This document shows positions 10,693 through 29,383 of a stretch of 35,745 nucleotides of DNA, one piece after another (within the stretch, counting starts at the first letter, position 1; every line of letters starts with the position of its first letter). A model generated the notes under the pieces. That model was not told where the DNA came from, did not search any database, and saw nothing but the letters and a program-made list of their open reading frames with translations. The position numbers and the translations under genes are program-made. This stretch comes from a virus. The stretch spans positions 1 to 35,745 of IMG/VR virus record IMGVR_UViG_3300016476_000979. One strand, 5' to 3'.

Positions 10693-11159
10693 AGGTGCGG
10701 TTTTACGAGCCAAACGATTTTGAGCGCGTCTATGCGTTAGCTCAGCAAATGCATGACGAGTCGGTGTTCCGCATCTTCCCGTTCCGCGAGGAAAAAGCCC
10801 ACACCATCGCCCGCATGTGCTGTGAGCGCGACGACTTCTTAATGCTGGTGGCCGAACGCGAGGCGGTGATTGTCGGCTTCTTTGTCGGCTTCCGCGCCGA
10901 GCATTTCTTTTCCGACAGCACCTATGCGTCCGATCTCGCGCTTTATGTCGATCCGCCGTTTCGCGGCTCGTCGGCAGCGGTGCGCTTAATGGCGACGTTT
11001 GAAGGCTGGGCGCGCCATCATGGCTGTGCGGAGCTGAGGATTGGGGCGGCTGCGCAAATCAATCCGGCGGTCGCCGACAAATTGTTTAAGGGCTTGGGCT
11101 TCCAGCCAGGCGGCGCGCTCTACACAAAATCGATCAGTCCATTGAGTGGACCGCACTGA
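10689..11159 (+). CDS. GNAT-family N-acetyltransferase embedded in the head module
   Basis: The GTG start overlaps the scaffold stop (GTGA). The acetyl-CoA motif A region is LALYVDPPFRGSSAAVRLM, with KLFKGLGFQP following. Confidence 0.75.
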   Translation: MKVRFYEPNDFERVYALAQQMHDESVFRIFPFREEKAHTIARMCCERDDFLMLVAEREAVIVGFFVGFRAEHFFSDSTYASDLALYVDPPFRGSSAAVRLMATFEGWARHHGCAELRIGAAAQINPAVADKLFKGLGFQPGGALYTKSISPLSGPH

Positions 11160-13047: not shown

Positions 13048-15231
13048 ATGGGCCTCAAGCTGACGCAAACCAATTTCTCGTCAGGCGAACTCGATCCGAA
13101 AATGGCCATGCGCCACGATGTCGGCGCGTTTGCCAATGGCGCAAAGGCCCTGCGCAATGTGCGCTTGCTTAACCAAGGCGGCGTGACGCGGCGTCCCGGC
13201 ACCGAATATATGGCGACGTTGACCGCCGATAGCCGTCTGATCCCGTTCGAGTTTTCGGCCGATGAGCGCTATATCTTTGCGTTCTCCAACGCCCGGCTCG
13301 ATATTTACAATTTGTCCGGCACGCTGTTGCAGAGTCTGACCAGTGCGCCATGGACGAGTGCCATCCTGCGCGAGATGACCTATGCGCAGGCCGCCGACGT
13401 GATGATCTTGTGTCATCAATCAATGCGCACCCAAGTCATCCGACGCACTGGGTCCACGACGTTTACGCGCAGCAATTTTGAGTTTCAGCAAAGCGTCAAC
13501 GGCAACAAGGTCTATCAGCCCTATTACAAGTTTGACGCCGATACGGTGACGTTATCGTGCAGCGCCACGACGGGGTCGGCAACCATTACGGCCAGCAGCA
13601 GCATTTTTGTCGCAGGCCATGTCGGCGCGCGGTTTCGCTGGTTTGACACTGAGATCGAGATTACGGCGGTCAGCAGCGGCACCAGCGCCACTGGCACGAT
13701 CAAAGGCACGCTTGAAGGTGTCTATATGATTGACCCCTTCCGCACCAAGGAAGGCACGCTCCGGATCGAGGTTACGCACACCAGTCACGGCATTGCCACC
13801 GGCGAGACCATCACGATCTCCGGGGCGAACAATATTGGCGGCATTGGCAACAACAACATCAATGGCAGCCGTGTCATCACGGTCATCGATGACAACCGTT
13901 ATTACTTCACGGCGGGCGGCACCACCGTCGCGACCGCTTCCACCGATGGCGGCGGTCCGAATGTGACCTTTACCGGGGCTAATATCCCCACGCGCAACTG
14001 GACCGAACAGACGTTTTCGACCGTCAATGGCTGGCCGGGCGCTGTGACCTTCCACGAAGGGCGGCTGTGGTTTGCTGGATCGGCAGCGCAGCCGGATGGC
14101 GTGTGGGGCTCAAAGATTTTCGAGTTCTTCAATTTCGATGTCGGCGAAGGCTTGGACAATGAATCGATCCAGATCACCATTGGATCGGATGACATCTCGT
14201 CCATTCGCCACATGGTGTCGAACCGTCATTTGCAGATCTTTACTGCAACGGCGGAGTTCTTCATCCCGAAGCAGAACCAAACCGCCACGACGCCGAACAA
14301 TTGCATCGTGCTGCGCCAGACGCCCTATGGCGCATCGACCTTGACGCCGATGCCGTTCGATGGCGCGACCGTGTTCCTGCAAGCGACCAAAAAGGCGGTG
14401 CGCGAATTTCTCTATACCGATGTGGAACAAGCCTATAACGCGCCGTCCTTGTCGATCCTGGCTGACCACCTGTTGCAAGACCCCATCGATATGACGGTGG
14501 CTTACGGCACGTCGAAGGCGGGCGAGCAATATATGTATCTCGTCAATGCCGATGGTTCGCTGCCGGTATTTCATTCGGCGCGCTCGGAAAAGCTGGCGGG
14601 CTGGGCCTTGTGGACGACCGGGACAAGTGGTGTCAGTGGCGCGTTCAAATCGGTCATGACTTTGGGCGAACGGGTCTATCTTGCGGTGCAGCGTGGAGCC
14701 GCGTTCTATTTGGAGCGCTTTGCGCAGAGCGATCTTGATAACACCCTCGACAGTGCGCAGACTTTGACGAGCGGCAGCGCGACGACAACGTGGACGCTGA
14801 ATGCCCGCTTTGCCAATCAGACCGTGTCGGTCATCTCGGGCAATTATTATCTCGGCGATTACACTGCCAATGCGTCGGGCGTCATCGAGATCAACGCGCC
14901 GGTGACGACGATCACGGTCGGGTTCAACTATCCGGTCACGGTCGAAACCCTGCCGGTGCATATTCAGTTGCAGGACGGCGCTTATACCGGGCGGCCGAAG
15001 CGCATTGCGCGGGTGATTTTGGGGCTTGACTCGACGCTCGCCGTCTCAGTGCAAAACAACCGCTTCATCTTGCGGCAAGTGCGCGATGATTTTGACACGC
15101 CGCCCGACCGCTTCACCGGCAAAACAGACTTTTATCTGCTCGGCTATCAGCGCGATGCGACGGTGACCGTCACGCAGACGGAGCCCTTGCCCCTGCGCTT
15201 GCTGGGCATGGCCATGGAGGTGTCAGTCTAA
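13048..15231 (+). CDS. Tail tubular protein B (T7 gp12-like)
   Basis: 727 aa, immediately after the gp11-like gene. The N-terminus has the G.L...GG.TRRPGTEY pattern, comparable to the gp12 GGISQQP...LQKRPP region. Confidence 0.8.
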   Translation: MGLKLTQTNFSSGELDPKMAMRHDVGAFANGAKALRNVRLLNQGGVTRRPGTEYMATLTADSRLIPFEFSADERYIFAFSNARLDIYNLSGTLLQSLTSAPWTSAILREMTYAQAADVMILCHQSMRTQVIRRTGSTTFTRSNFEFQQSVNGNKVYQPYYKFDADTVTLSCSATTGSATITASSSIFVAGHVGARFRWFDTEIEITAVSSGTSATGTIKGTLEGVYMIDPFRTKEGTLRIEVTHTSHGIATGETITISGANNIGGIGNNNINGSRVITVIDDNRYYFTAGGTTVATASTDGGGPNVTFTGANIPTRNWTEQTFSTVNGWPGAVTFHEGRLWFAGSAAQPDGVWGSKIFEFFNFDVGEGLDNESIQITIGSDDISSIRHMVSNRHLQIFTATAEFFIPKQNQTATTPNNCIVLRQTPYGASTLTPMPFDGATVFLQATKKAVREFLYTDVEQAYNAPSLSILADHLLQDPIDMTVAYGTSKAGEQYMYLVNADGSLPVFHSARSEKLAGWALWTTGTSGVSGAFKSVMTLGERVYLAVQRGAAFYLERFAQSDLDNTLDSAQTLTSGSATTTWTLNARFANQTVSVISGNYYLGDYTANASGVIEINAPVTTITVGFNYPVTVETLPVHIQLQDGAYTGRPKRIARVILGLDSTLAVSVQNNRFILRQVRDDFDTPPDRFTGKTDFYLLGYQRDATVTVTQTEPLPLRLLGMAMEVSV

Positions 15232-15758
15232 TGTGCGTTACCCTTCTTGTCGCGTCGACGTTAATCTCGGCAGCAGGCGCTTTCACGACAGCGGCTATGC
15301 AATCGAGCGCAGCGCAAGCCGAAGCCGCTTACCGCGACCAGCAATTGCGCATCCAGAACCAACAACTCATGCAAGACATGCAATTGGCGGAGATCCAAGG
15401 CATGCAGCAGGAGAATGTGCGCATGGATCAAGCGCGCAAAATGCAAGCCGCCAATGAGGCGTTCTTAGCCAGTTCCGGCGTCGGCCAATCGATGAGTTTC
15501 ATGCAAGGCACGGAGAAAGAAAACGACATCGCGCTGCGCAAAGATGTCGCCAATCTGCGCTTGCAGTCGATCACCGCGCAAAGCCGCATCGCCGATCAGA
15601 TCGTCGTCAACAATCTTGAGCAGCAATTCGTCAAGCAGAAAGCCTCGATGACGGCGGCGCAAGGCTACACCAATGCGATCTTCAACACGGCATCGTCGGC
15701 GGTGAACAATGCGTATCGCTACGATTATTACCGCACCAACGGCAAACTGATCCCGTAA
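15231..15758 (+). CDS. Internal virion protein with N-terminal TM segment (gp13/gp14 position)
   Basis: MCVTLLVASTLISAAGAFTTAAM is hydrophobic, followed by a Gln-rich coiled coil. TAATG overlap with the gp12-like stop. Confidence 0.6.
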   Translation: MCVTLLVASTLISAAGAFTTAAMQSSAAQAEAAYRDQQLRIQNQQLMQDMQLAEIQGMQQENVRMDQARKMQAANEAFLASSGVGQSMSFMQGTEKENDIALRKDVANLRLQSITAQSRIADQIVVNNLEQQFVKQKASMTAAQGYTNAIFNTASSAVNNAYRYDYYRTNGKLIP

Positions 15759-15767: not shown

Positions 15768-18572
15768 ATGGCGATTAAACCCGACGAACAGCAAACGATG
15801 GTTCAGCCGTCCAACCGGCTGATCCGCGAGTTTCGCACTGATTTGCCGGATCCGTCCGATTATGCGGTGCAACGCTTTGCCGCGACGATTGGCGAAGCGG
15901 GCGAAGCCTTGGCCAAGTCCGAAGCCAAGAACGCTGCCCAAACCGCCGCCTATTCCGCGCCGCTCGGCAAAGACGAGAACGGCAATTATATTAAGCCCGA
16001 AGTGCCGGAAAACTTTGGCTTGTTTGCGCGCGACGTGTTCAACGAAATCGTTACGCAACGCTCCGCCAATATGGCGGTGACTGATTTTGAAAGCTTTGCG
16101 CTTAAAGTGCGGGCCGAAAAAGCCGATGACCCGGCAGGCGGAGCCGCCCTCATCGACGCCAATCTGAAAGGTCGTCTGGCGGCTTTGCCACCGGAGATGC
16201 GCGGTCGCGTCGAAGGCGCGATGATGCGCGAGCGCAACCAGCATGTCGGCACGATGGAGCTTGAACATGCGCGCAAGGTCGAGCGCCAGACCCTTGAAGG
16301 CATTAAGACCGATGTCACGACCTTCACCCAAAAAGCGCTCGATGCGGCCAAGGTCAATACGCCAGAGGGCGATGCGCAGGCTGCCGCTCACCTTGATTTG
16401 GTCGAGCAATCGATTGGCGCATTGGTCGCCAAGCGGGTTCTGCCCGAAAACGCCCTGACGAATTTTAAGGAAACCCGCACCGGGATCATGGCGGGCGGTA
16501 AGATCATCGCCCAAGTCTATCAACGGCTGAAAGAAAACAATCTGCAAGAGGCCGATCTGGTCGATCTCGAGCGCATTGTCCGTTCGCCGTGGGCGGATGA
16601 GAATGTGTTGCAGATTCGCAGCGAAGATATTCGCAAGACCTTGACCACGGATGAAGCGCGCGCGGCAGTGGCCAGTGAACTGCGCAATATGCGCGGGCTG
16701 TTGACCAAGCAATTTGCCGAGAATGCCGAAGCGGCCGCGATCAATGGCGTTGTCGAGCAAGTGCGCAAAAACGGCAAGGCCGGAATGCCCATCGATATGA
16801 GCGACACGCTCAAAGAAAAAACGATGCGCACATGGGCGCAGCAGGAAGGCTTAACGGTCAACGGGTCGCTGCCCCTGACCCCGCAAGTGCTGGACCGGCT
16901 GCAAGGCACGTTTGGCGAATTGCCCAAGAAATCGATTGAAGCGTTGTTCCGCAACCCCAACACGCTGACGCCCGATGAGATCGAGGCGCGCTATGAGACG
17001 TTCCGACATTTGAACGGGATGCGCACCGGCAGTAATGACACGACGCCTGCGATTGGCATTCTCAATGAGCGCGACTTTGCGTTCATGAAGCAATACCAAT
17101 TTGCCCGCGAAACCGGGGCCAGCCCCAAAGCTGCTTATGACTCAGCCAACGACATGCTCAAGCGAGGCAAGGTCGAAACCGTATCGCCCTCGGCAGTGAC
17201 CGAAGCGGTGCGCCGGAAATATTCAGCGGAGAGCACATTTCCAAAAGAAACCCAAGATGTGGAAAAATTGCTGCGCAATTATTTCCCGTCCGATCCCAAT
17301 TCCGTGATGGGCAAGCCGCCCGTCACGGCCATGAGCCTTGCGCAACGCCAGACGGTGCTGGGCGTGGCGTTGCAGACCATGGCGTATAACGAAAACCTCA
17401 AAACCGCTGAGGCTATCGAATATGCCATGAAGCGGTTCATGACGACCCATACCTATGATCCCACCATTGCGGGCGAAGGCGGCATGGTCGGGGGCTTTGT
17501 GCCTAAGACGCAAGCCATCCCGTCGATCTATGACATCAAAGAGCGCAGCGAGACGGCGCGCACGACGGATTACGTCAAGCCTTATATCGATGCCTTGCTG
17601 CGTGCCGACAAAGATCTCAAGCCTGCCTTCAATCCTGCGGACAAGGATCGTTTGATCCCGCGCAACCAAGGCGGCTGGTCGCTACCGATGGATGACAGCC
17701 AGCTTAAATATGGCGAGAACATCGCGCTCAAACCAATTGGCGTCGATACTGAGAATCCCGGCTTTCAGCTTGTTTACAAGCTCGACAATATGCGCGGCTG
17801 GGCCCCGGTTCAAAACAACAAGCGCGAGAACGTCATCGTCTATTTGGGCGACGCGGCCAAGAAACAAGACGCCTTCGCGCGTGAATTGTCGCTCGATTAT
17901 GCCCGTTCGAGCGCGTTGGCCGAGAAGATGAATGCAGAGCAACTGGCCGCAGGCGGCACGGATTTCGTGGCCAAGCCCGATAGCCCGCGTTCGGGCGAGC
18001 GGCCTTTGGGCATGATTGACGTTCAATCAATCATTGCGCCATCCCCCAATGCCAATAGCCGTGGCACGCCGGGGCTCAAGCAGCAGCCGGGCCAACGCCC
18101 GATGCAATTGCGCGACGATGGCGGGGAGCCGATCTTGCAGCGGCTTGGCCAATTTGTCGTGCCAGGCAAAACCGCCGCCATTCTCAATCAGGTCGATCAA
18201 ACCTTTGCGCAGAGCATGGCAGCCATGGTCGAAGCCATGCCCGACGAGATCCGCAAAGGCTTCTTTATTTCCTCGGCCTATCGCACGGTTGAAGAACAGG
18301 CCGACATTTTTGCTAAGCATGTCGTCAAATATGGCACTGAAGAACGGGCGCGCAAATGGGCCGCCCCGGCTGGCAAATCGTTCCACAATCACGGCAAGGC
18401 CATGGATTTGCGCTTTGCCAATACATCGGTGCGCGATTGGGTTCACCAAAATGCTGCGCAATTTGGTCTGCATTTTCCCATGAAACATGAGCCGTGGCAC
18501 ATCGAGCCGATTAACGCGCGCAAGATGCGCTCTGCATCCTTGTTGGATGGCGATACTGAGGAAGCCGTATGA
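15768..18572 (+). CDS. Internal virion/ejection protein with C-terminal peptidase M15 (VanY-like) cell-wall hydrolase domain
   Basis: 934 aa. The C-terminal SSAYRTVEEQ...APAGKSFHNHGKAMDL...HEPWHIEP matches the zinc D,D-/L,D-peptidase M15 signature (S.YR, H..G.A.D, E.WH). Confidence 0.8.
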   Translation: MAIKPDEQQTMVQPSNRLIREFRTDLPDPSDYAVQRFAATIGEAGEALAKSEAKNAAQTAAYSAPLGKDENGNYIKPEVPENFGLFARDVFNEIVTQRSANMAVTDFESFALKVRAEKADDPAGGAALIDANLKGRLAALPPEMRGRVEGAMMRERNQHVGTMELEHARKVERQTLEGIKTDVTTFTQKALDAAKVNTPEGDAQAAAHLDLVEQSIGALVAKRVLPENALTNFKETRTGIMAGGKIIAQVYQRLKENNLQEADLVDLERIVRSPWADENVLQIRSEDIRKTLTTDEARAAVASELRNMRGLLTKQFAENAEAAAINGVVEQVRKNGKAGMPIDMSDTLKEKTMRTWAQQEGLTVNGSLPLTPQVLDRLQGTFGELPKKSIEALFRNPNTLTPDEIEARYETFRHLNGMRTGSNDTTPAIGILNERDFAFMKQYQFARETGASPKAAYDSANDMLKRGKVETVSPSAVTEAVRRKYSAESTFPKETQDVEKLLRNYFPSDPNSVMGKPPVTAMSLAQRQTVLGVALQTMAYNENLKTAEAIEYAMKRFMTTHTYDPTIAGEGGMVGGFVPKTQAIPSIYDIKERSETARTTDYVKPYIDALLRADKDLKPAFNPADKDRLIPRNQGGWSLPMDDSQLKYGENIALKPIGVDTENPGFQLVYKLDNMRGWAPVQNNKRENVIVYLGDAAKKQDAFARELSLDYARSSALAEKMNAEQLAAGGTDFVAKPDSPRSGERPLGMIDVQSIIAPSPNANSRGTPGLKQQPGQRPMQLRDDGGEPILQRLGQFVVPGKTAAILNQVDQTFAQSMAAMVEAMPDEIRKGFFISSAYRTVEEQADIFAKHVVKYGTEERARKWAAPAGKSFHNHGKAMDLRFANTSVRDWVHQNAAQFGLHFPMKHEPWHIEPINARKMRSASLLDGDTEEAV

Positions 18573-21500
18573 GTGACGTTGCTTACGCCCAAGATCCGCG
18601 TCTCGATCTTATTGCGCAACCCGTCACGTCGCTAAACCCGCCGCCGCCCGGTGGCTTCGTCCAGAATGTGTGGGACGAAGTCATGACCTCGTGGTGGGTC
18701 GGCGAAATCAACAAGCTGCAAGATTTCAATGTGCCTGCCGCCGAAGGCTATGATCCGCTCTATGATGAGCGCATCAAGGGCAAAGAGCCCTATGTCGATT
18801 ATCTGCGCGAAGCGCGCTCGCCAGAACATTTCGACGCGATCTGGAACCGCCTGACGACCTATGAGCAGAAGCGCATGCGGCTGACGGAAGAAGGCGGTCT
18901 TGCCTCCGCCTTGACGGCAGGCGTGATCGACCCGGCCAATCTTGTGCCGTTTGGCGTCGGACGCGGCGTTGGTGTGTTGCGCGGGGCTTTGCTCGGCGGG
19001 GCTTCGACGGCAGCCGTGACGCTCGGCACGCAAATCATCCAAGACCAATCGGTGCCGGTCAGCCGCGAAGAAATGGCCTGGGGCACGGCCATGGGTTTTG
19101 GCTTTGGCTCGCTGTTTGGCGGCGTCATTGGGCGCAATATTCCTGACAATGCGCAATTGAGCGAACTCAGCCGCACCGTGCAGACGCAGGCCAAGGTGCT
19201 CGATGATGCGATCACCAGTGGCTTGATGCCCAACCCTTATGCGGCTGCGCCTGCAACGCCGTTTGAGGTGCGCCCGACCACGCCCAACGCGGTTGGCGTG
19301 GCTTCGGCTTTTGGTTTGGAAAAAGTGGTGTCCAAGCTTGGTAATTTTGGCGCGTTGATCAGTGCGCCATTTCGGGGCTTTGAGGATCTTGGCCATGCGC
19401 TTGCAGGCGAAGGCGATCTTCTGACCAAGCGCAACAAGCTGGCGCTTGAAGAAGGTGGCGGGTCAACACAGGAGTCAGCGCATTTGCGCTCGCTCTATTG
19501 GCAGGGCCGCGCTTCGGTTTTGCTGCAAGACATTGAATCGATCTATGCCCGCTATATCGGCGGCGGCGACACGCAATTCAAATTGGGTGGCGTGAATGTG
19601 CCGGTGACGTTCCAGCGCATGAAACAGGCGATCACCGGGCGCGGTCCTGACGGCAAGATGTCGCTCAACGAGTTCCATGCGGCTGTGTCACGCGCGCATA
19701 AACGCGACCGCATCGAGACGGATGATCCCTTTGTGCGCGAAGCGGTTGAGAAAACCCGCGCCTATTACGAAGAATTTAAGAAGGCTGGCCTTGAGTCCGG
19801 CATGATCGTGGCGAAGGAAAATGTCGAGCGCATTGCCACGCGATTGGCCAATTGGACCGGATCGAAGAAGGTTCGGCTGGCTGAATTAGAGGCCAAAGAC
19901 ACGCTGACCGCCAATGAAAAGGCGGAAGTCAAATTGCTCAATGATGCCATTCGCTATGGCGAACAGCGCGGGCGTTTGTATAGCACGGCTTTGCGGAGCA
20001 AGAGCGTGCCAAAGCCCCCGGCCCCGCCTGTGTCGCCGCGTCCGACGCGCGAAACGGTGCGCGCTATCAATGACGATTTTTCGTCGGCATCTCCAACAAG
20101 CGACAAATTTATCAACATCAATGAGCTGCAAGACGATGATCCGCAATGGCTCTATCACGGCACAAATGTGAGGCTAAACGGACGCTTTACAGAGTTTGTT
20201 GATCAAAATGGCAATCTTCGCTTAAAGGCCAGTTATCAATCTTTGGATAAACGGGTGAGTGTGTCATTTACGCCGTTTGTCGAAACGGCAAAAGACTATG
20301 CAACGCGTGAGAAGGGTGGTGGCCCCAATGCCCGCAATGTTTCTGGCGCGGGCATCTTTGTTATCGACCGGGAATATTTGCCAAATTTAGAACAGCGGTC
20401 TGGCGAAGCGCTATCTTCGCCAACGGACATTGTGATTCCACCTGACGGTTGGAAGTTTGCAACATTGCAAAGCAATGACGTAAAGTTTTTGGAAGAACTA
20501 AAAGCCGATATTGCCTCTTTTATCAATGAACTCAATGGCAAGTCGAATAAAGAGCTTCTCGACCTTATTCGGGATCAAAACATTGATGTCGAAGTAAAAG
20601 AAGCAAACTATGGTTCAGAACAAGATATTTCTGGCGTCGGCAAAAATAGCGAATACGCGCAATGGTATCTTGAAAATTTTGACAGAGAAGGGCTGGACAT
20701 CAAAGTCTATGCTGCATCGCAATTATTGATTCAGCGCGGCATTACTGACGCTGAAATTAAAGCGTATACAAAAGAACTTAATGACAGTTGGGCTTCGGAC
20801 TATGCGGTTGAAAGCCGCAATAGCCTTGAAAAGTTTATTGAGCGGTTTGACGCCGTTAAACCTTATGACGCGGTTTCTGATTTAGAGGCGTTGCGCCAAC
20901 AACAATCCGCTGGCGTCGTCAACACGCGCTCGATGCTGAACCCGACCGACGCGCCACGGATGCGCGGTCCGGCCAATGCCAATGATGAACCCTATATTGG
21001 CCCTGAGAACGAAGCCAATTACCTCAACCGCATTTGGGCGCTCGACAAAGTGCTTGCGGATGAGGCTGGCCCACAAAAGCTGCGCGCTGTGTTGATGGAA
21101 TGGTATCGCGATAACCCGCTGCCTGACAATCTCGACCGCATCGACGCTCTGATGAACGATCTGATTGCGTATAAAACCAGCAAGAACCCGAATAGCGTTG
21201 ATCTCTTGGCCAAGCTTGAACGCTTGAGCGAAGAAGCGCCGGGTCTGACGCAGAAGCAATATGATCTGATGGTCAAGCTGCGCACGGAGTTAACGCAGAC
21301 CAAAACCTTCTCGCCCAAACAATGGGAGTTCTTTGACAAACTGACCGAGCAATGGCGCAAAGAACGCGGCAAGGTTGATTTCCGCAACACTGATGACGCC
21401 ATCGAAGCGCGGGTCGACCGCACGATTGCCCATATCCTCAAGACGGCAGAGCTTGGCGAGTATCAGGTGGGCCGGGCGCTTGAGACCCCTGCCCTGGCCC

Positions 21501-23023
21501 GCGACCTTAACATTCCCAACGAGTTGGTGTGGGATTTTATCGAAGACGACATCTCGGTTTTGATCCGGTCTTATGCCCAGCGCATGGGCCCAGCGGTCGA
21601 ATATGGCCGCATGTTCGGATCCCGCGATGCGGAAATGGCGATCCATGACGCTGCCTTGCAAGCGGCCAAGGAAGCGAAGGGGCCGACCGATCGCGCTATT
21701 CTCGATCAGGTTGAAACCCATATGAACCAAGCGCGTGCGGTGCGCGACGATGTGCTGCGCGATTCCTATGCCGCCAACCCCTTGTCGCTCAATCGCAAGA
21801 TCGTGCAGGGCATGAGCGCCTATACGATGATTACGACATTGAGCAGCGCTTTGGTGACCTCGCTCTCGGAAATGGCCAAGCCTCTGATGATGTGGGGGTT
21901 TGGCCGGTCGTTTTCGTTTGCCATGAAGGCGATGAATGACCGCGAAGCCTTCGAAGGCATTAAGCGCGACGTGCAAGTCTTGACGGCAGGCGGGCTTGAA
22001 GCGGCTCTGCACATGCACGCACAGCGGTTTGCTGAGCAAGGCGGCGTCTTGGGCGGCTCGCAGAACTTTGCCGGACGCTTGTTCGATAGCGCCAATCGCA
22101 AGCTCATTAACTTCGCCAATGGCCCGTATTTTGTGCTCAATTTGCTGGGCCCTTTTACGGACATCCTCAAGAATTATACGGGCGTCATGTCGGCGCATTT
22201 CTTGATTGATGACGCGCGGGCGATTGCAGCGGGCAAGGCTGATAAGCGCACGCTGGCCAATTGGCGGGGCCTGTCATTGACCGAGGATGACGCGGCCCGT
22301 CTCGCGGCGATGCCGATTGAAGATCATAAAGGGCTCAACCTGACCAATATTGCGGCGTGGCCGGATCAGGATTTGGTGCGCAAATTTGGCGCAGCGGTCG
22401 CCTCCGAACAGCGTCGAGCTGTGGTGACCGCAGGCCCGGCTAACGTGCCAGACATCGCGCGGGGCTTTGTCGGGCTAGGCGACAAACGGCGGGAGTTTGC
22501 CTATTTGCGCCTGCCGTTTTTGCTGATGAACTTTGCCTTTGCTTCGGTCAACAAGACCCTGCTTTCAGCGCTGCAAGGCCGTGATGCCAACGCCATTATG
22601 GGGGCTGTCACCATGATTGGTGCAGCCTATATGGTGCAGAAGCTCAAAACCTCGGATGCTGCATGGGACCGCATGGACGAAAGCGAAAAACTGCTGCGGG
22701 CGATTGAGAACTCCGGCTTGTTGGCGGTGATGGGGGACATCAATTCCAAGCTCGAAAGCCTAACCCGCAGCCAGATGGGCGTGCGTCCGGCCTTGGGAAT
22801 GGAACCGCGCATGGGCGAATTGTCCACTGATGCGTTCGAACCCTATAGCGCATTGGGTCCGTTGGGCACGCGCGGGGCAGATCTTTATCAATTGTTCTTC
22901 GACAATTCGCTGGCCACCCGCGACCAATCGCGGATCTTGCGGCGGGCGTTGGTGCCGGAGTTGTTCTATCTCAAACCCTTGTTTGATCAGGCTGAACGGG
23001 GGGCGTTAGAGGCCATCGATTAG
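18569..23023 (+). CDS. Giant internal virion/ejection protein (T7 gp16 position), 1484 aa, with a low-GC inserted module
   Basis: ATGA-coupled to the upstream gene. It has hydrophobic Gly-rich segments near the N-terminus and C-terminus. The in-frame A/T-rich block at about 20090-20890 begins with WLYHGTNVRLNG. Confidence 0.8.
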   Translation: MSDVAYAQDPRLDLIAQPVTSLNPPPPGGFVQNVWDEVMTSWWVGEINKLQDFNVPAAEGYDPLYDERIKGKEPYVDYLREARSPEHFDAIWNRLTTYEQKRMRLTEEGGLASALTAGVIDPANLVPFGVGRGVGVLRGALLGGASTAAVTLGTQIIQDQSVPVSREEMAWGTAMGFGFGSLFGGVIGRNIPDNAQLSELSRTVQTQAKVLDDAITSGLMPNPYAAAPATPFEVRPTTPNAVGVASAFGLEKVVSKLGNFGALISAPFRGFEDLGHALAGEGDLLTKRNKLALEEGGGSTQESAHLRSLYWQGRASVLLQDIESIYARYIGGGDTQFKLGGVNVPVTFQRMKQAITGRGPDGKMSLNEFHAAVSRAHKRDRIETDDPFVREAVEKTRAYYEEFKKAGLESGMIVAKENVERIATRLANWTGSKKVRLAELEAKDTLTANEKAEVKLLNDAIRYGEQRGRLYSTALRSKSVPKPPAPPVSPRPTRETVRAINDDFSSASPTSDKFININELQDDDPQWLYHGTNVRLNGRFTEFVDQNGNLRLKASYQSLDKRVSVSFTPFVETAKDYATREKGGGPNARNVSGAGIFVIDREYLPNLEQRSGEALSSPTDIVIPPDGWKFATLQSNDVKFLEELKADIASFINELNGKSNKELLDLIRDQNIDVEVKEANYGSEQDISGVGKNSEYAQWYLENFDREGLDIKVYAASQLLIQRGITDAEIKAYTKELNDSWASDYAVESRNSLEKFIERFDAVKPYDAVSDLEALRQQQSAGVVNTRSMLNPTDAPRMRGPANANDEPYIGPENEANYLNRIWALDKVLADEAGPQKLRAVLMEWYRDNPLPDNLDRIDALMNDLIAYKTSKNPNSVDLLAKLERLSEEAPGLTQKQYDLMVKLRTELTQTKTFSPKQWEFFDKLTEQWRKERGKVDFRNTDDAIEARVDRTIAHILKTAELGEYQVGRALETPALARDLNIPNELVWDFIEDDISVLIRSYAQRMGPAVEYGRMFGSRDAEMAIHDAALQAAKEAKGPTDRAILDQVETHMNQARAVRDDVLRDSYAANPLSLNRKIVQGMSAYTMITTLSSALVTSLSEMAKPLMMWGFGRSFSFAMKAMNDREAFEGIKRDVQVLTAGGLEAALHMHAQRFAEQGGVLGGSQNFAGRLFDSANRKLINFANGPYFVLNLLGPFTDILKNYTGVMSAHFLIDDARAIAAGKADKRTLANWRGLSLTEDDAARLAAMPIEDHKGLNLTNIAAWPDQDLVRKFGAAVASEQRRAVVTAGPANVPDIARGFVGLGDKRREFAYLRLPFLLMNFAFASVNKTLLSALQGRDANAIMGAVTMIGAAYMVQKLKTSDAAWDRMDESEKLLRAIENSGLLAVMGDINSKLESLTRSQMGVRPALGMEPRMGELSTDAFEPYSALGPLGTRGADLYQLFFDNSLATRDQSRILRRALVPELFYLKPLFDQAERGALEAID

Positions 23024-23074: not shown

Positions 23075-25117
23075 ATGGCGATCCTTATCAACGATACGAC
23101 CCCGCGCGTCCAATACACGGCGACTTCTGGTCAGACGGTGTTCTCGGTCCCGTTCGAGTTCTTTTCGAACGCCGATCTCAAAGTCTATAAAAATGCCACC
23201 CTGCAAACCCTGACGACCCATTACACGGTCACCGGCGCAGGCGTCACCGGCGGCGGCTCGGTCACATTGACCAGCGGCGCAACGGCTGGCGACATCATCA
23301 CCATTTTGCGCGACATCCCGGTCGCCCGCAGTTCGGATTTCCCGACCTCTGGTCCGTTCAATATCGATGCGCTCAACAGCGATCTCGACCGTCTGACGGC
23401 GATGGTGCAGGAGCGCGAGACGGCCATTGAGCGCAGCCTGCGGATGCCCGATACCGATGGCACGATCTCCACCACCTTGCCTGCCAAGGCTTCGCGCCAA
23501 GGGCGCGTGCTGGCGTTTAACGCGACGACTGGCGCACCTGAGGCTGGCCCGACGATTACTGCGGTCAATGATGTTTCCGCGTCGTCTGCGAATGTTGACA
23601 CGGTGGCGGGGGCCATCAGCAACGTCAATACGGTGGCGGGCTCGATTGCCAATGTGAATGCGACGGGCGGCAGCATTGCCAATGTCAACACGGTGGCGGG
23701 GATCGCCGCCAATGTGACAAGCGTCGCGGGCAACGCGGCCAATATCAACACGGTCGCTGGGGTCAGCGCCAATGTGACCACGGTCGCTAGCAATATTGCA
23801 GCGGTCAGCACCAACGCCAGCAACATTGTCGCAATCCAAAACGCGGCGACCAATGCCACCAATGCAGCCAACTCGGCTACAGCGGCCGCCAGCTCGGCGT
23901 CGGCGGCTGCCAGTTCGGCGAGTTCTGCGTCGTCGGCGGCGAGTTCAGCGGCTAGTGCGCAAAGCGCAGCAGAAGCAGCGCGCGATCAAACCCTGACGGC
24001 GTTCGATAATTTTGATGACCGGTATCTTGGCACCAAAGCTAGTGATCCGACGCTCGACAATGACGGCAATGCGCTTGTCGCAGGCGCGCTCTATTTTAAT
24101 TCGACCGACGGCGTCATGAAGGTTTACACCGGGTCGGCATGGGTCGCGGCCTATGTCTCTGGCTCAGCGACCGGCGCAGCGTTGACGGTCAATAACTTGT
24201 CCGATCTGGCCAGTATTGCGACTGCGCGCACGAACCTTGGCTTGGGCACAGCTGCGCTTGAAAACACCTCAGCGTTTGCGGCTGCGGTTCATACGCATGG
24301 TTCAACGTCGATTAGCGATAGCACAGCGGCAGGCCGCGCTTTGTTGACGGGGGCGGATGCTGCCGCTCAACGCACAAGCTTGGGTCTTGGCACTGCTGCC
24401 ACAATGACCGGCCCGTCCGGCACCATTGTCGGAGCCAGCGACACGCAAACGCTGACTAACAAGACCCTGACGACACCGGTCATTAACGGGATGACTGGCG
24501 ACACGTCGTTGATCAATTTTGGCTCAGGTCAATTCTACAAAACGACAGACGGCAAAATCGGCATTGGCACGACAACGCCGGGTGCAGAGCTTGATGTCAA
24601 AGGTGCGTTTCGTCTCTCGGGCTCAACATCAGGCTATGTCGGCTTTGCTGCCGCTGCGGCTGCGGGCAGCACCACTTACACGTTGCCCAGCGCCGATGGC
24701 ACCAATGGCCAGTTTTTGCGCACCAATGGATCGGGCACTTTGACGTGGGCAACGCCAACGGCACCAGTCACGAGCCTTGTCGCGGGCGATGGCATTACGG
24801 TCAGCGCTGCGACCGGCGATGTCACGATTAGTCAAGATTTGTATACGGGAACATCGGCAACCAATACGAGCTTCCCGATTGGCACGACGCTTTTGGTAGC
24901 TTACGCCAACACTGGCGCAACTCAAACGCAGAATTTGGCCTCGACGCGGACATTGTATGTGCGCACAAACTCAAGTGAAGGCGTTGCTTATTCAGCGACG
25001 GCAACAGGGCGCAGCGCGTTGAGCGGCACATGGCGGGCGCGTGGCCTTCAAATCCTTATTAATGACACGAGCCTAAACAACTACACTTATGTTGCGCTTT
25101 TCCAACGAACCGCATGA
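23075..25117 (+). CDS. Tail fibre protein (T7 gp17-like N-terminus, repeat shaft, divergent C-terminal receptor-binding domain)
   Basis: The N-terminal TPRVQYTATSGQTVFSVPFEFFSNADLKVY...ILRDIPVARSSDF...ALNSDLDRL fits the T7 tail-fibre N-terminal domain. There are 10-aa shaft repeats, LGLGTAA motifs, and a C-terminal SGTWRARG...ALFQRTA. Confidence 0.85.
   Translation: MAILINDTTPRVQYTATSGQTVFSVPFEFFSNADLKVYKNATLQTLTTHYTVTGAGVTGGGSVTLTSGATAGDIITILRDIPVARSSDFPTSGPFNIDALNSDLDRLTAMVQERETAIERSLRMPDTDGTISTTLPAKASRQGRVLAFNATTGAPEAGPTITAVNDVSASSANVDTVAGAISNVNTVAGSIANVNATGGSIANVNTVAGIAANVTSVAGNAANINTVAGVSANVTTVASNIAAVSTNASNIVAIQNAATNATNAANSATAAASSASAAASSASSASSAASSAASAQSAAEAARDQTLTAFDNFDDRYLGTKASDPTLDNDGNALVAGALYFNSTDGVMKVYTGSAWVAAYVSGSATGAALTVNNLSDLASIATARTNLGLGTAALENTSAFAAAVHTHGSTSISDSTAAGRALLTGADAAAQRTSLGLGTAATMTGPSGTIVGASDTQTLTNKTLTTPVINGMTGDTSLINFGSGQFYKTTDGKIGIGTTTPGAELDVKGAFRLSGSTSGYVGFAAAAAAGSTTYTLPSADGTNGQFLRTNGSGTLTWATPTAPVTSLVAGDGITVSAATGDVTISQDLYTGTSATNTSFPIGTTLLVAYANTGATQTQNLASTRTLYVRTNSSEGVAYSATATGRSALSGTWRARGLQILINDTSLNNYTYVALFQRTA
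23591..23830 (+). repeat. Eight tandem 30-nt (10-aa) coding repeats in the tail-fibre shaft
   Basis: Units begin at 23591, 23621, 23651, 23681, 23711, 23741, 23771 and 23801. The consensus is aatgtSaacacggtggcggg...; protein consensus NVNTVAGxIA. The last unit is degenerate. Confidence 0.85.
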
Positions 25118-25353
25118 GGCCCTTTATGGATCGTGACAAATATAAAAACCTTCGGGTTTTGTGTCGGTGGGAAGCCGATGGCGGCCTCAATTGTCTTGTC
25201 GATATGTGGGACGATTGGTCAAAAACATGGGAGCTCGATGTTCCTTATGTGGCGCGCAAAGGCGACCCTGCGCCATGCAATATTTGGATCCTCAATCAAA
25301 TCGCCAATGGTTCTTATGGGCCTTTTGAGCCTTGTCTTGTGACGGACGAATAA
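25114..25353 (+). CDS. Hypothetical protein (79 aa) coupled to the tail fibre gene; possible fibre accessory/chaperone
   Basis: ATGA overlap with the fibre stop. It shares the lower G+C of the fibre 3' end. Confidence 0.55.
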   Translation: MRPFMDRDKYKNLRVLCRWEADGGLNCLVDMWDDWSKTWELDVPYVARKGDPAPCNIWILNQIANGSYGPFEPCLVTDE

Positions 25354-25354
25354 A

Positions 25355-25555
25355 ATGGCCGCGCACCACCTGACCGAGCCCGAGAAAATTATTGGAGACG
25401 TTGTGAGTGTTGGGACGGTCGTGGGCACATTATCCGGATTACTGCCATCCATTGCCGCCATCTTCACAATCGTGTGGACCGGCATCCGCATCTACGAAAC
25501 CGATACCGTGCAACGGATGATCGGTCGCGCACCGGTCGATAAAGCGGACGATTGA
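25355..25555 (+). CDS. Small membrane protein (holin/antiholin-like), 66 aa
   Basis: Hydrophobic core VVSVGTVVGTLSGLLPSIAAIFTIVWTGIRI with a charged C-terminus. It lies immediately upstream of the holin. Confidence 0.55.
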   Translation: MAAHHLTEPEKIIGDVVSVGTVVGTLSGLLPSIAAIFTIVWTGIRIYETDTVQRMIGRAPVDKADD

Positions 25556-25946: not shown

Positions 25947-26458
25947 GCTTCGATACAGCCCTCAAAGAAACGCTGAGCCATGAAGGCGGCTGGGCCAAAC
26001 ACCCGCTTGATCCCGGTGGGTCGACCATGAAGGGCGTGACGAAAACGACCTATGAGGATTGGATGGGGCGCGCCGTCAACGACAATGAGTTGAAGGAAAT
26101 CCCCGACGCGCATTTGCAGGCGATCTATCGCGACAAGTTCTGGAACCGGGTGCGCGGCGATGAATTGCCGTCCGCCGTGGCGATGGTGGTGTTTGATTTT
26201 GCCGTCAACTCAGGGCCGGTGCGGGCCATCCGGCATTTGCAATCGGTGGTCGGCGCATCGCCGGACGGCCAGATCGGTCCAAAAACCTTGGCGGCGGTCG
26301 ACAATTACATGGCCAAGCACGGCATCGAGACGCTGATCAAATCCTATTCTCATTCCCGGCTGATGTATCTGCGCGATCTCAAAACATGGCGGGTGTTTGG
26401 ACGCGGTTGGGAGCGCCGAGTGATCACCGTCGAGCGCAAGGCCATTGCCCATATCTAG
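25943..26458 (+). CDS. Endolysin: glycoside hydrolase family 108 domain plus PG_binding_3 domain
   Basis: ETLSHEGGWAKHPLDPGGSTMKGVT is the GH108 signature. SPDGQIGPKTLAAVDNY is the peptidoglycan-binding motif. Confidence 0.85.
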   Translation: MSFDTALKETLSHEGGWAKHPLDPGGSTMKGVTKTTYEDWMGRAVNDNELKEIPDAHLQAIYRDKFWNRVRGDELPSAVAMVVFDFAVNSGPVRAIRHLQSVVGASPDGQIGPKTLAAVDNYMAKHGIETLIKSYSHSRLMYLRDLKTWRVFGRGWERRVITVERKAIAHI

Positions 26459-27339
26459 CGGGCGCGCGGGTGGGCGGCGTCATAAATTGTCAACAGGCGG
26501 TCCATCGCGACCTCGGCATATTTGGTGGTCGATGAGATCGATTCATGCCCGAGCAGGATTTGCAGTGAGCGCAGATCGGCCCCCCGGTTGAGAAGATCGG
26601 TGGCAAAGGCATGGCGCAGCGCGTGGGGCGTTGCGCTTTTGGGCAGGCCAAGATCGGCGCGCATGCGTTCGAGCTTGAGTTGAATGAGCCGGGGGCTCAA
26701 GGCCCCGCCGCGTGCACCGCGAAAGAACAACGATCCCTTGGTCAGATCATACGGGCATTGCTCCTGGTAGAGTTTGCAAAACCGAGCAATGATGGGAAGA
26801 ATGGGCACTTCACGCTGTTTTGAGCCTTTGCCCCAAACCCGCAACGCGCGCTCGGGATCGAGCGGGGCATCTTCGGCTTTGATCGACAGGGCTTCGGAGA
26901 TGCGCAAGCCCGCACCATAGAGCAAGAGCAGCACGGCTTGGTCGCGCACCCCTTTCCAATCATTGGCAGGGGCCGTGCGCAGCATCGAGACGGCGGCATC
27001 GGTAGCGACAGGGCGTGGCAAGCGACGGGCCACCACGGGCGTCCTGACGCTGTTATAGGGCAAGGCGGAGCCAAGCCCCTCGCGGTCGAGGAAGCGGCCA
27101 AACATTCGAAGCGCGGCGATCTGGCGTTGCAGGGTGGCGGCTCCAACCCCCTGCCCGCGCCGTGCGCCCAAGAACGAGCGAATGTCATAGACGGTGGCCT
27201 CGGCCAGCGAGATTGCGCCGAGATGGTCGGCAAACTGGCGCACGTCGCGCAGATAGGATGCGACCGTATTGGCGGGCGCATAGCGCTCGGCCTCAAGGTG
27301 ACGGCGATAAAGCTGGATCAGATGCGGGTTGATGCTCAT
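26455..27339 (-). CDS. int: Tyrosine recombinase/integrase, short XerC/XerD-like type
   Basis: LLLYGAGLRISEAL (Arg), HALRHAFAT (H-x-x-R), LLGHESISSTTKYAEV (His, Tyr). Start chosen at MSINPH (27339); the ORF-track start at 27402 is a TTG. Confidence 0.9.
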   Translation of the reverse strand: MSINPHLIQLYRRHLEAERYAPANTVASYLRDVRQFADHLGAISLAEATVYDIRSFLGARRGQGVGAATLQRQIAALRMFGRFLDREGLGSALPYNSVRTPVVARRLPRPVATDAAVSMLRTAPANDWKGVRDQAVLLLLYGAGLRISEALSIKAEDAPLDPERALRVWGKGSKQREVPILPIIARFCKLYQEQCPYDLTKGSLFFRGARGGALSPRLIQLKLERMRADLGLPKSATPHALRHAFATDLLNRGADLRSLQILLGHESISSTTKYAEVAMDRLLTIYDAAHPRAR

Positions 27340-27402
27340 GGCGGCTGAACCTCTCGCCCCAAGAGAAGTTCCAGAACCCGCTTGCGTCAAATCGGCAATC
27401 AA

Positions 27403-29098: not shown

Positions 29099-29383
29099 TT
29101 ACTCTTTCTCCCCAAGCGCGGCGCGGGCTTCAATACGCAGTTCTGCAAGCAACTCTGGGTAAGATTTGTCAGCGTCACGCGGGCCATCGCATATCTTTCG
29201 CAGCGCCGCTTCCAGCGCCTCAATGCGGTCTTTTATTTCAACACCGCGATGAGAATACACAGGCACATAGATTTGCTGTTTACTATCCCAGATGCATGGA
29301 ACTGTTGCGGCCTGTGGTTTTGGGCTATCAAAACGGGCAGATGCGTCAGTCGTGCATTTACTGAAAGCTTCGTTATCACTCAT
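29099..29383 (-). CDS. Small paralogous protein 3 of a tandem trio (94 aa)
   Basis: It ends in RIEARAALGEKE and contains DRIEALEAALRKI. The last ~30 nt are nearly identical to those of the gene ending at 29570. Start at MSDNEAF (29383). Confidence 0.6.
   Translation of the reverse strand: MSDNEAFSKCTTDASARFDSPKPQAATVPCIWDSKQQIYVPVYSHRGVEIKDRIEALEAALRKICDGPRDADKSYPELLAELRIEARAALGEKE

What the first reader, a model, noticed from the sequence alone, without database searches (positions are those of the whole stretch)
20090..20890. Low-GC, in-frame module with an LYHGT (ART/Tpt1-like) motif inserted in the 1484-aa ejection protein
The gp16-position internal virion protein (18569..23023) contains an in-frame block of roughly 800 nt that switches to A/T-ending codons. 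My hand counts of G+C are 23/60 in line 20521 and 24/60 in line 20641, against 37/60 in line 21421.

The block opens with WLYHGTNVRLNG (W527 onward, nt 20147). SVSFTPFVETAKDYA and GIFVIDREYL...GEALSSPTDIVIPPDGW follow.

The order of a [LF]YHG[ST] strand, an S/T-containing strand, an aromatic residue and a late acidic residue is the layout of H-Y-E type ADP-ribosyltransferase-fold enzymes. Examples are the PARP motif LWHGS and the KptA/Tpt1 motif FLYHGT.

Internal virion proteins of T7-like phages are ejected into the cell ahead of the DNA. An ART or 2'-phosphotransferase-like effector fused here would therefore act before any phage transcription. T4 Alt and the polyvalent proteins of phages and conjugative elements are analogous cases.

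The compositional break indicates recent horizontal acquisition of the module.
Basis: partly seen in the sequence, partly recalled or inferred. Interest (0 to 1): 0.7.

Follow-up and report, generated by a model that had tools for sequence, protein, structure and literature searches.

The report
ART-like cargo module in ejection protein
A podovirus protein that is shot into the host cell ahead of the DNA carries a horizontally acquired, low-GC insert whose core folds like an ADP-ribosyltransferase, so it is probably an enzyme delivered at the moment of infection; this kind of weapon is known, but not this family or this carrier protein.

Summary
ORF 18569..23023 (1484 aa) is the gp16-position internal virion protein of a temperate podovirus with T7-type structural gene order.

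Codons 499-781 (nt 20063-20911) form the deepest GC trough of the contig. GC3 is 0.42 inside against 0.69 outside, and total GC has z = -6.5. The three closest relatives (53-65% identical) lack the block entirely. Two others carry a different HExxH cassette at the same site.

The first 110 residues (aa 523-632) belong to a rare family seen only in metagenomes, with 35 cluster representatives among 1.84 billion. It almost always sits in giant phage proteins. Near-invariant positions are H530, G531, S566, Y577, R580 and a late Glu.

Evidence for an ART fold:
- The AlphaFold model (pLDDT 87.5) best matches Tpt1, Arr, PARP16 and DarT.
- The family profile aligns to the prototype ART-PolyVal domain of the Roseovarius phage RPP1 virion RNA polymerase (hhalign 89%, P 2e-6).
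- It aligns more weakly to KptA.

It fails Pfam's ART-PolyVal threshold and lacks Tpt1's RNA-binding lobe. The same domain sits at three different positions in homologous gp16 backbones.

Verdict: a divergent ART-superfamily cargo effector. Its activity and target are untested, and the window's own copy may have Ala at the conserved Glu position.

The parts
18569..23023 (+). gp16-position internal virion (ejection) protein gene, 1484 aa. This is the backbone that carries the cassette.
   Evidence: The ORF is. PHROG 342 'internal virion protein' matches aa 985-1398 at 2.5e-32. Gene order is portal, scaffold, capsid, tail tube A, tail tube B, 175 aa, 934 aa, 1484 aa, fibre. Weakly hydrophobic Gly-rich segments lie at aa 125-187 and 1317-1335.
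20063..20911 (+). Low-GC in-frame cassette, codons 499-781: ART-like core plus helical tail.
   Evidence: Change-point analysis gives GC3 0.42 against 0.69, LLR 33 against at most 9 in shuffles, and GC z = -6.5. P0002, P0003 and P0004 lack it, and P0005 and P0006 carry another cassette there.
20135..20464 (+). ART-superfamily-like core domain, aa 523-632.
   Evidence: This is the conserved core of the 35 exhaustive-HMMER hits. A profile built without the window sequence scores it at 92.5 bits. The AF2 model has pLDDT 87.5. Foldseek returns Tpt1, Arr, PARP16 and DarT. hhalign to ART-PolyVal gives 89%.
20156..20161 (+). H530-G531 of the LYHGT strand-1 motif, the predicted NAD+-binding His.
   Evidence: H is 32/33 and G is 33/33 in alignment A2. 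The motif aligns to LYHGT of E. coli KptA and of the RPP1 ART-PolyVal domain.
20264..20266 (+). S566 in the VSFT strand. It is invariant and aligns to His of Tpt1 VHLS and to Phe of RPP1 LFFT.
20297..20308 (+). Y577 to R580 (DYAxR helix). Y is 32/33 and R is 30/33.
   Evidence: Conservation is. The segment aligns to ARDYA of the RPP1 ART-PolyVal domain.
20405..20410 (+). E613-A614, the position of the family's near-invariant late Glu (31/33). MAFFT and HMMER put A614 in that column with E613 one residue before.
   Evidence: Alignments are. Members with MGEAF or MGEAA (P0034, L010) suggest that E613 is the homologue, with a one-residue loop deletion. This is unresolved.
20465..20911 (+). All-helical tail of the cassette, aa 633-781, with the loosely conserved 'LS[DN]xEL' helix. 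Function unassigned.
   Evidence: The AF2 full-module model shows helices 137-282 with pLDDT 55-85. There is no meaningful Foldseek match. It is shared in part with P0009, P0016 and P0024.
15768..18572 (+). gp15-position internal virion protein, 934 aa, with a C-terminal VanY peptidase domain. It is the partner ejection protein.
   Evidence: Pfam VanY at 2.7e-12 on aa 808-912. It is 57% identical to the L001 homologue.
15231..15758 (+). gp14-position small internal virion protein, 175 aa.
   Evidence: Assigned by synteny only. There is no PHROG hit.

Best explanation
The block is a mobile 'cargo' cassette inserted in frame into a hypervariable site of the gp16-type ejection protein of a temperate podovirus.

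Its N-terminal 110 residues form a divergent ADP-ribosyltransferase-superfamily domain. The domain is nearest to the ART-PolyVal (N4-ART) domains of phage polyvalent proteins.

Proposed mechanism:
1. The protein is built into the capsid core together with the gp14- and gp15-like proteins.
2. It is ejected through the tail at adsorption and refolds as part of the trans-envelope conduit.
3. The cassette is exposed to the cytoplasm, the only compartment that holds NAD+.
4. There the ART-like domain transfers ADP-ribose from NAD+ to a host macromolecule. The target could be transcription or translation machinery, a defence protein, or a nucleic-acid end. This would happen before any phage gene is expressed.
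5. The helical tail (aa 633-781) is likely a target-recognition or spacer element.

Shown here:
- The insertion and its foreign composition.
- Family membership and the conserved H/S/Y/R/E positions.
- ART-fold similarity.
- Recurrence of the domain in gp16-like and other giant phage proteins.

Inferred, not shown:
- Packaging and ejection, from gp16 homology and synteny.
- Cytoplasmic exposure.
- NAD+ use.
- The target.
For: Insertion:
- Closest relatives P0002, P0003 and P0004 lack aa ~503-800.
- blastn leaves this stretch unaligned.

Family:
- There are 35 hits at E<=1e-3 in 1.84 billion cluster representatives. Most of the carrier proteins are 1300-3000 aa long, a minority 350-900 aa.
- A leave-one-out profile scores the window copy at 92.5 bits.
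- H530, G531, S566, Y577, R580 and a late Glu are at least 90% conserved.

Fold:
- The AF2 model has pLDDT 87.5 and pTM 0.81.
- Foldseek PDB ranks 1-4 are Tpt1, Arr, Arr and PARP16, followed by DarT, tankyrase and PARP1.
- BFVD hits include an Arr-like protein, 'PolyVal ADP-ribosyltransferase' and PARP proteins.

Profile comparisons:
- hhalign against the RPP1 vRNAP ART-PolyVal domain gives 89%, P 2.3e-6 and 43% identity over 49 columns. That domain was located by Pfam at 36.5 bits. LYHGT, xxFT, A+DYA and KGG are in register.
- Against Tpt1 C-lobes it gives 66%.
- Forty shuffles reach at most 6.4%.
- 14 of 33 members hit PF18760 weakly, always in the same register.

Cargo behaviour:
- The same domain lies at aa 523-632 in the window, at aa 1020-1138 in P0009, and at aa 307-416 in L010 and L008.
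- The backbones of these proteins are homologous, and all occupy the gp16 position of T7-type structural modules.
- P0005 and P0006 hold an HExxH cassette at the window's site.
- Some carriers show weak polyvalent-protein hallmarks: LPD23, the N4 RNAP helical domain and SprT-like.

Concept: virion-packaged, injected ARTs are established for T4 Alt and predicted for polyvalent proteins (PMC5512222, PMC9503650).
Against: - No sequence or structure match reaches a conventional significance threshold on its own. The window copy has no Pfam hit at E<=1. Relatives score 12-16 bits against a 31.2-bit cutoff. Foldseek PDB E-values are at or above 9e-3 with TM about 0.46. A profile search of PDB sequences finds nothing.
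- hhalign matches cover only the N-terminal half of the domain (49 columns).
- The strand-2 residue is Ser, not the Tyr or His of known H-Y-[EDQ] and H-H-h ARTs.
- In this copy both MAFFT and HMMER place Ala614 in the conserved Glu column. The copy could therefore be catalytically impaired.
- Topology of the cassette after ejection (cytoplasm or periplasm) is unknown.
- No virion proteomics exist for this uncultured phage.
Confidence: 0.6

Rival explanations
1. The cassette has an ART-derived fold but is not an enzyme. On this reading it is a binding, spacer or decoy domain. It could for example bind NAD+-derived signals, a host protein or nucleic acid, or simply lengthen the ejectosome.
For: - Ala614 occupies the family's near-invariant Glu column in both alignments.
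- Strand 2 carries Ser instead of the Tyr or His of characterised relatives.
- All similarity to known ARTs is weak.
- The site tolerates complete absence of the cassette in the closest relatives.
Against: - H530, G531, S566, Y577 and R580 are retained in the window copy. They are at least 90% conserved across a family only 25-40% identical overall, which is the pattern of an active site.
- Glu613 is adjacent. It aligns with the conserved Glu when the window copy is compared with the MGEAF and MGEAA members.
- From established knowledge, ARTs without the catalytic Glu can still be active: PARP10-type H-Y-I enzymes, and Tpt1 with a hydrophobic residue there.
Confidence: 0.2
2. It is a Tpt1/KptA-type RNA 2'-phosphotransferase delivered to repair or cap RNA ends cut by host anticodon nucleases.
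For: - The top Foldseek PDB hit is P. horikoshii Tpt1 (prob 1.00).
- LYHGT is identical to the KptA motif.
- hhalign to Tpt1 C-lobes gives 48-66%.
Against: - The match covers only KptA residues 97-143, which lie in the NAD+ lobe.
- No N-terminal winged-helix lobe with the R-H motif precedes the domain. Only about 25 variable residues lie between the cassette start and LYHGT.
- Tpt1's VHLS His corresponds to Ser566.
- ART-PolyVal matches better, 89% against 66%.
- No RNA ligase or 2H phosphoesterase was noticed in the window. This was not searched systematically.
Confidence: 0.07
3. The low GC reflects amino-acid composition or local selection, not horizontal transfer. On this reading the block is an old, lineage-specific elaboration of gp16.
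For: - GC at codon positions 1 and 2 also drops to 0.38-0.45, and the module is enriched in D, E, N, K and I.
- No donor closer than about 35-42% identity was found.
- There are no flanking DNA repeats.
Against: - The drop is strongest at synonymous third positions, 0.42 against 0.69.
- The same domain in L010 and L008 has GC3 equal to or above its host gene, so low GC is not a property of the fold.
- Relatives at 53-65% identity lack the block.
- The domain occupies three different backbone positions in different lineages.
Confidence: 0.08

Closest known systems
ART-PolyVal (Pfam PF18760; 'N4-ART', Tox-ART-HYD2 clade) of phage and conjugative-element polyvalent proteins. The prototype is in the Roseovarius Plymouth podovirus 1 virion RNA polymerase (CBX87992.1).
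   Same: - It is embedded in very large virion-associated proteins predicted to be injected.
- LYHGT in strand 1, xxFT in strand 2, the A+DYA helix and the KGG loop align in register (hhalign 89%).
- The size is small, about 110-140 aa.
- It co-occurs with HExxH peptidase-like segments in some carriers.
   Different: - It scores below Pfam's gathering score. The window copy has no hit and relatives score 12-16 bits against a 31.2-bit cutoff.
- It has an extra beta-hairpin, 'IDxDGNLVLKPSxNFxG', between strands 1 and 2.
- The late acidic residue is Glu rather than the Asp reported for the family (PMC5512222).
- The C-terminal half does not align.
- The carrier is a T7-type gp16 ejectosome protein rather than an N4 vRNAP, MuF or conjugative polyvalent protein.
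- No member was found in 50,697 GenBank phage records by tblastn.
Tpt1/KptA RNA 2'-phosphotransferase, NAD+-binding lobe
   Same: The LYHGT motif is identical, the best PDB fold match is 8tfi, and the helix after strand 2 aligns.
   Different: There is no RNA-binding N-lobe, Ser replaces the second His (VHLS), and the match is weaker than to ART-PolyVal.
Arr rifampin ADP-ribosyltransferase and DarT
   Same: Both are minimal ART folds of similar size and are Foldseek hits (Arr prob 0.94 and 0.85, DarT 0.30). An Arr-like viral protein appears in BFVD.
   Different: No sequence-level match was found. The genetic contexts differ: Arr is a resistance gene and DarT is a toxin-antitoxin toxin.
T4 Alt, a virion-packaged and injected ART
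   Same: The functional logic is the same: an ART carried in the virion that acts on the host at the moment of DNA entry (PMC5512222, PMC9503650).
   Different: Alt belongs to the R-S-E clade. It is a separate head-packaged protein of a myovirus and is not a domain of the ejectosome.
T7 gp16 (internal virion protein D)
   Same: It has the same gene position, a PHROG 342 match on the C-terminal half, and large size.
   Different: No lytic transglycosylase domain was detected. Here the wall hydrolase (VanY) sits on the gp15-like protein. T7 gp16 has no ART-like insert (own knowledge).

Membership tests
ART-PolyVal (PF18760) | Scores at or above Pfam's gathering threshold (31.2 bits). | tested here: not met
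   The window copy has no hit at E<=1. 14 of 33 relatives hit at 12-16.5 bits. The true prototype RPP1 scores 36.5 bits.
ART-PolyVal (PF18760) | His at the end of strand 1 ([LF]YHGT). | tested here: met
   H530 is conserved 32/33 and lies in model strand 13-19. It aligns to LYHGT of RPP1.
ART-PolyVal (PF18760) | Tyr assigned to strand 2 and Asp in strand 5 (the H-Y-D configuration, PMC5512222). | tested here: inconclusive
   Strand 2 carries invariant Ser566, where RPP1 has Phe. Tyr577 (32/33) aligns with the Tyr of RPP1 'RDYA'. The late acidic residue is Glu (31/33), and in the window it is E613 or A614. The C-terminal halves do not align.
ART-PolyVal (PF18760) | Occurs inside large virion-delivered or conjugation-delivered multidomain proteins. 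| tested here: met
   Most hits are proteins of 1300-3000 aa. Four carriers are gp16-position proteins. P0011 lies beside virion structural genes.
ADP-ribosyltransferase superfamily (fold level) | Split beta-sheet ART fold recognised by structure comparison. | tested here: met
   The model has pLDDT 87.5. Foldseek PDB ranks 1-4 are all ARTs with prob 1.00 to 0.28 and TM 0.33-0.47. E-values are only 9e-3 or worse.
ADP-ribosyltransferase superfamily (fold level) | NAD+ binding and ADP-ribose transfer. | not testable with these tools
   This needs biochemistry.
Tpt1/KptA | N-terminal winged-helix RNA lobe carrying the catalytic Arg-His. | tested here: not met
   hhalign covers only KptA residues 97-143. 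Only about 25 non-conserved residues precede LYHGT in the cassette.
Tpt1/KptA | Second His in strand 2 (VHLS), the H-H-h configuration. | tested here: not met
   It aligns to invariant Ser566 (VSFT).
PARP catalytic domain (PF00644) | Pfam match and the H-Y-E triad. | tested here: not met
   1 of 33 members hits at E 0.11. The strand-2 Tyr is absent.
T7 gp16-type internal virion protein | Gene position after tail tube B and the gp14- and gp15-like genes and before the tail fibre, plus homology to the internal virion protein family. | tested here: met
   PHROG 342 matches at 2.5e-32.
T7 gp16-type internal virion protein | N-terminal lytic transglycosylase domain. | tested here: not met
   There is no Pfam or NCBIfam hit on the protein. 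A VanY domain is found on the gp15-like protein instead.

The most novel reading that the evidence does not exclude
The gp16-type ejectosome protein of T7-like podoviruses may be a general, modular delivery chassis. On this reading it has several insertion sites into which interchangeable effector cassettes are swapped by recombination. The cassettes seen here are this ART-like family at three backbone positions and an HExxH cassette at the same site in sister phages. The ART-like family (H-S-Y-R-E) would then be a previously undescribed enzymatic clade, with a substrate or chemistry different from known H-Y-[ED] ARTs, acting at the cytoplasmic mouth of the DNA-entry channel.
Probability: 0.3. 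Interest if true: 0.75.

Novelty: new variant of a known kind. Interest (0 to 1): 0.55.

Why it matters
Injected effectors are well known for T4 (Alt) and predicted for polyvalent proteins. The internal core proteins of T7-like podoviruses, by contrast, are usually treated purely as a DNA conduit.

The finding shows that homologous gp16 backbones accept the same ART-like domain at three different positions. A sister lineage holds a peptidase-like cassette at the window's site. This suggests the ejectosome doubles as an effector-delivery platform.

If the domain is active, it would modify a host target in the first seconds of infection, before transcription. That makes it a candidate counter-defence or host-takeover activity.

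The family is absent from cultured-phage databases, so it is also an uncharacterised branch of ART diversity. It offers a clear set of residues to mutate: H530, S566, Y577, R580 and E613.

Tried and rejected
- Single-sequence Pfam, PHROG, NCBIfam and PADLOC scans of the module found nothing meaningful.
- phmmer and profile hmmsearch against PDB sequences found nothing.
- The word-indexed search of 5.8 billion proteins with the module found nothing. With alignment A2 it found only one TARA fragment. The exhaustive HMMER search was what found the family.
- The full-module model and Foldseek gave no assignment for the helical tail. Top hits were topoisomerase and DnaK at prob <=0.07.
- tblastn of the module and of two other family members against 50,697 phage records found no match. 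tblastn of the module alone against 72,556 plasmids also found none.
The scan with the window domain alone found no relative. It succeeded only with the tighter sub-alignment A5.
- Flanking DNA repeats as a recombination scar: only short, chance-level matches were found.
- An embedded promoter, terminator or RNA element as an alternative reading of the low-GC block: none was found.
- The HExxH cassette of P0005 and P0006 has no Pfam hit.
- Tpt1 and PARP membership was rejected on defining features (see the membership test).
Full report
OBSERVATION

ORF 18569..23023 (+) encodes 1484 aa.

A sliding profile shows the lowest GC of the entire 35,745-nt window at 20101-20700: 0.44 against a window mean of 0.577.

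A two-change-point likelihood fit on third codon positions places the block at codons 499-781, nt 20063-20911. GC3 is 0.424 inside and 0.688 outside. The log-likelihood gain is 33.3, against a maximum of 9.1 in 30 codon shuffles. Total GC is 0.442, while no other 849-nt window of the contig falls below 0.504 (z = -6.5).

The region carries no promoter-like or terminator-like excess and no Rfam match. The only opposite-strand ORF is an 81-aa mechanical one. It is therefore simply coding sequence of foreign composition.

THE CARRIER

The window is the whole contig on which the protein was seen, 35,745 bp.

PHROG and Pfam hits and the gene order identify the structural module:
- large terminase (6235)
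- portal (8141)
- scaffold
- a GNAT-like ORF
- major capsid (11289)
- tail tube A (12461)
- tail tube B / nozzle (13048)
- a 175-aa protein
- a 934-aa protein ending in a VanY peptidase domain
- the 1484-aa protein
- tail fibre (23075)

The same order, with precomputed Pfam labels, is seen in relative L001. The protein's C-terminal half matches PHROG 342 'internal virion protein' at 2.5e-32. The gp16-position assignment is therefore sound.

An integrase 71% identical to that of L001 indicates a temperate phage.

THE BLOCK IS AN INDEL AT A HYPERVARIABLE SITE

Five relatives were found with the full protein.
- P0002 and P0003 are 65% identical and P0004 is 53% identical. They are about 250 aa shorter and have only about 40 variable residues where the window has aa ~503-800.
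- P0005 and P0006 are about 45% identical. They carry a different insert of about 110-140 aa with an HELxH motif at that very place.

blastn between the window gene and L001 aligns both flanks but nothing across gene nt 1182-2449. No significant DNA repeats flank the block.

WHAT THE BLOCK IS

Single-sequence searches of Pfam, PHROGs, NCBIfam, PADLOC, PDB sequences and the word-indexed protein database were empty.

The exhaustive HMMER search of 1.84 billion cluster representatives found 35 proteins at E<=1e-3, the best at 4.8e-10. Most are 1300-3000 aa long, a minority 350-900 aa. The shared core is query residues 23-131, which is protein aa 523-632.

In the 33-sequence alignment A2 the following positions are conserved:
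- G531 and S566, invariant
- H530, 32/33
- Y577, 32/33
- a late Glu, 31/33
- R580, 30/33
- also G548, L550 and the I623-P624 pair

A profile built without the window sequence scores it at 92.5 bits, so the window copy is a firm member of this family.

IS IT AN ART?

Four lines of evidence agree, and each is modest on its own.

(i) Structure. AlphaFold2 with A2 gives pLDDT 87.5 and pTM 0.81.
- Foldseek against the PDB ranks P. horikoshii Tpt1 first (prob 1.00, E 9e-3, TM 0.46).
- Next come Arr twice (prob 0.94 and 0.85), then PARP16.
- DarT, tankyrase and PARP1 lie further down.

(ii) Viral structures. Against BFVD two uncharacterised phage proteins pass E<1e-3. Named hits include an Arr-like protein, 'PolyVal ADP-Ribosyltransferase' and PARP-domain proteins.

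(iii) Pfam. 14 of 33 family members hit PF18760 ART-PolyVal at 12-16.5 bits. Member residues 13-64 are always aligned to profile positions 8-49.

(iv) Profile comparison. I fetched the prototype named by Iyer et al. (PMC5512222), the Roseovarius Plymouth podovirus 1 vRNAP, and located its ART-PolyVal domain with Pfam at aa 1023-1096, 36.5 bits.
- hhalign of A2 against it gives probability 89%, P 2.3e-6 and 43% identity over 49 columns.
- LYHGT, xxFT, A+DYA and KGG are in register.
- E. coli KptA gives 48%, and 66% when trimmed to its C-lobe. A four-sequence Tpt1 C-lobe alignment built from PDB entries also gives 66%.
- Controls are a reversed sequence at 0.2% and 40 shuffles at no more than 6.4%.

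I conclude that the core is an ART-superfamily domain, nearest to ART-PolyVal.

It is not a member of PF18760 by Pfam's threshold. It is not a Tpt1, because it has no N-lobe and Ser566 replaces the second His. It is not a PARP. Only the N-terminal half aligns to any known family. An extra hairpin (IDxDGNLVLKPSxNFxG) sits between strands 1 and 2.

A CAVEAT SPECIFIC TO THE WINDOW COPY

Both MAFFT and HMMER put Ala614 in the column where 31 of 33 members have Glu. Glu613 lies one residue earlier.

Members with 'MGEAF' or 'MGEAA' (P0034, L010) align naturally with the window's 'SGEAL' if a one-residue loop deletion is allowed. That would make E613 the homologue. I could not resolve this without coordinates.

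THE REST OF THE BLOCK

Residues 633-781 are predicted to be all-helical at pLDDT 55-85. They have no meaningful structural match. Several relatives share the start of this tail, with a loosely conserved LS[DN]xEL helix. P0009 shares about 120 residues of it.

CARGO BEHAVIOUR

P0009 is encoded at the gp16 position of another T7-type structural module (L003). Its backbone is homologous to the window protein at the N-terminus, the middle and the C-terminus. Its ART-like module, however, lies at aa 1020-1309, a backbone position equivalent to about aa 1220-1230 of the window protein.

Four IMG/VR contigs were found with a tighter sub-alignment. The two examined (L010 and L008) carry the domain at aa 307-416 of gp16-position proteins of 1372 and 1554 aa. 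Their backbones are again homologous.

The same domain therefore sits at three different sites of homologous ejection proteins.

GC3 of the module compared with the rest of its host gene:
- window: 0.42 against 0.69
- L003: 0.36 against 0.49
- L010: 0.50 against 0.56
- L008: 0.59 against 0.51

Low GC is therefore not intrinsic to the domain. The window copy looks like an un-ameliorated acquisition from a lower-GC pool. No donor closer than about 35-42% identity exists in anything searched.

Other carriers show faint polyvalent-protein hallmarks: LPD23, the N4 RNAP helical domain, SprT-like and HExxH segments. One lies next to virion structural genes.

MECHANISM

By homology and synteny with T7-type internal core proteins, the 1484-aa protein should be packaged in the capsid. 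It should then be ejected before the DNA to build the trans-envelope channel (established knowledge for T7 gp14, gp15 and gp16).

The cassette lies between weakly hydrophobic Gly-rich segments (aa 125-187) and the conserved C-terminal half.

If it reaches the cytoplasm, the ART-like domain could use NAD+ to modify a host target at the very start of infection. This is the logic established for T4 Alt and predicted for polyvalent proteins (PMC5512222, PMC9503650).

The fold, the conservation and the cargo behaviour are shown here. Packaging, topology, NAD+ use and the target are inferred.

NOVELTY

Virion-delivered ARTs are a known kind. Three things appear new:
- This family is divergent, below Pfam thresholds, has an H/S/Y/R/E signature, and is absent from 50,697 GenBank phage genomes by tblastn.
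- Its chassis is the gp16 ejectosome protein. The 2017 polyvalent-protein paper does not mention gp16 or internal virion proteins. A full-text search for 'internal virion protein' together with 'ADP-ribosyltransferase' returned only three phage genome-characterisation reports, which I did not open.
- Insertion occurs at multiple sites of the backbone.

I rate it a new variant of a known kind, of moderate interest.

Noticed in passing
window 15768-18572 (+), aa 808-912: The gp15-position internal virion protein ends in a VanY D-Ala-D-Ala carboxypeptidase domain (Pfam 2.7e-12). The gp16-like protein has no lytic transglycosylase hit. In this lineage the wall-cutting activity of the ejectosome therefore seems to sit on gp15 and to be a peptidase rather than a glycosidase.
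   Followed up: partly
P0005 aa ~525-660 and P0006 aa ~505-630 (alignment A1 columns ~600-870), the site equivalent to window 20063-20911: Two relatives about 45% identical to the window protein carry a different cassette with a conserved HELxH (zincin-like) motif, exactly where the window has the ART-like module. It has no Pfam hit. This suggests interchangeable effector cassettes at one site.
   Followed up: partly
window ~20060-20077 and ~20972-20989 (peptides RAINDD and PANANDE); same positions in P0002-P0005: A short peptide motif R/P-x-A-N-[DE] recurs on both flanks of the variable cassette in five of six relatives. There is no matching DNA repeat. It could be a recombination-tolerant linker or a processing site.
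   Followed up: no
L003 10001-14710 (P0009 aa 1020-1309); L010 7062-11180 (aa 307-416); L008 7065-11729 (aa 306-415): The same ART-like family is embedded at three different backbone positions in homologous gp16-position proteins of other T7-type podovirus contigs.
   Followed up: yes
window 10689-11159 (+): A 156-aa ORF between the scaffold and capsid genes is 53% identical to an L001 gene whose product hits Pfam Acetyltransf_1 (GNAT). A GNAT in the middle of the head-gene block may be another virion-associated modifier. Iyer et al. note that GNATs neighbour ARTs in polyvalent proteins.
   Followed up: partly
window 26455-27402 (-): This ORF is 71% identical to the tyrosine integrase of relative L001. 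The phage is therefore probably temperate, which is unusual for a phage with a T7-type structural module.
   Followed up: partly
window 33301-33900, 29101-29700 and 24901-25500: These are secondary, much shallower GC dips (0.49-0.52 against a mean of 0.58). They were not examined.
   Followed up: no
L001 15726-18075: The closest relative carries a Hint-like gene and a radical SAM gene after the tail fibre. These appear to be missing from the window, where the endolysin follows the fibre region at 25943.
   Followed up: no
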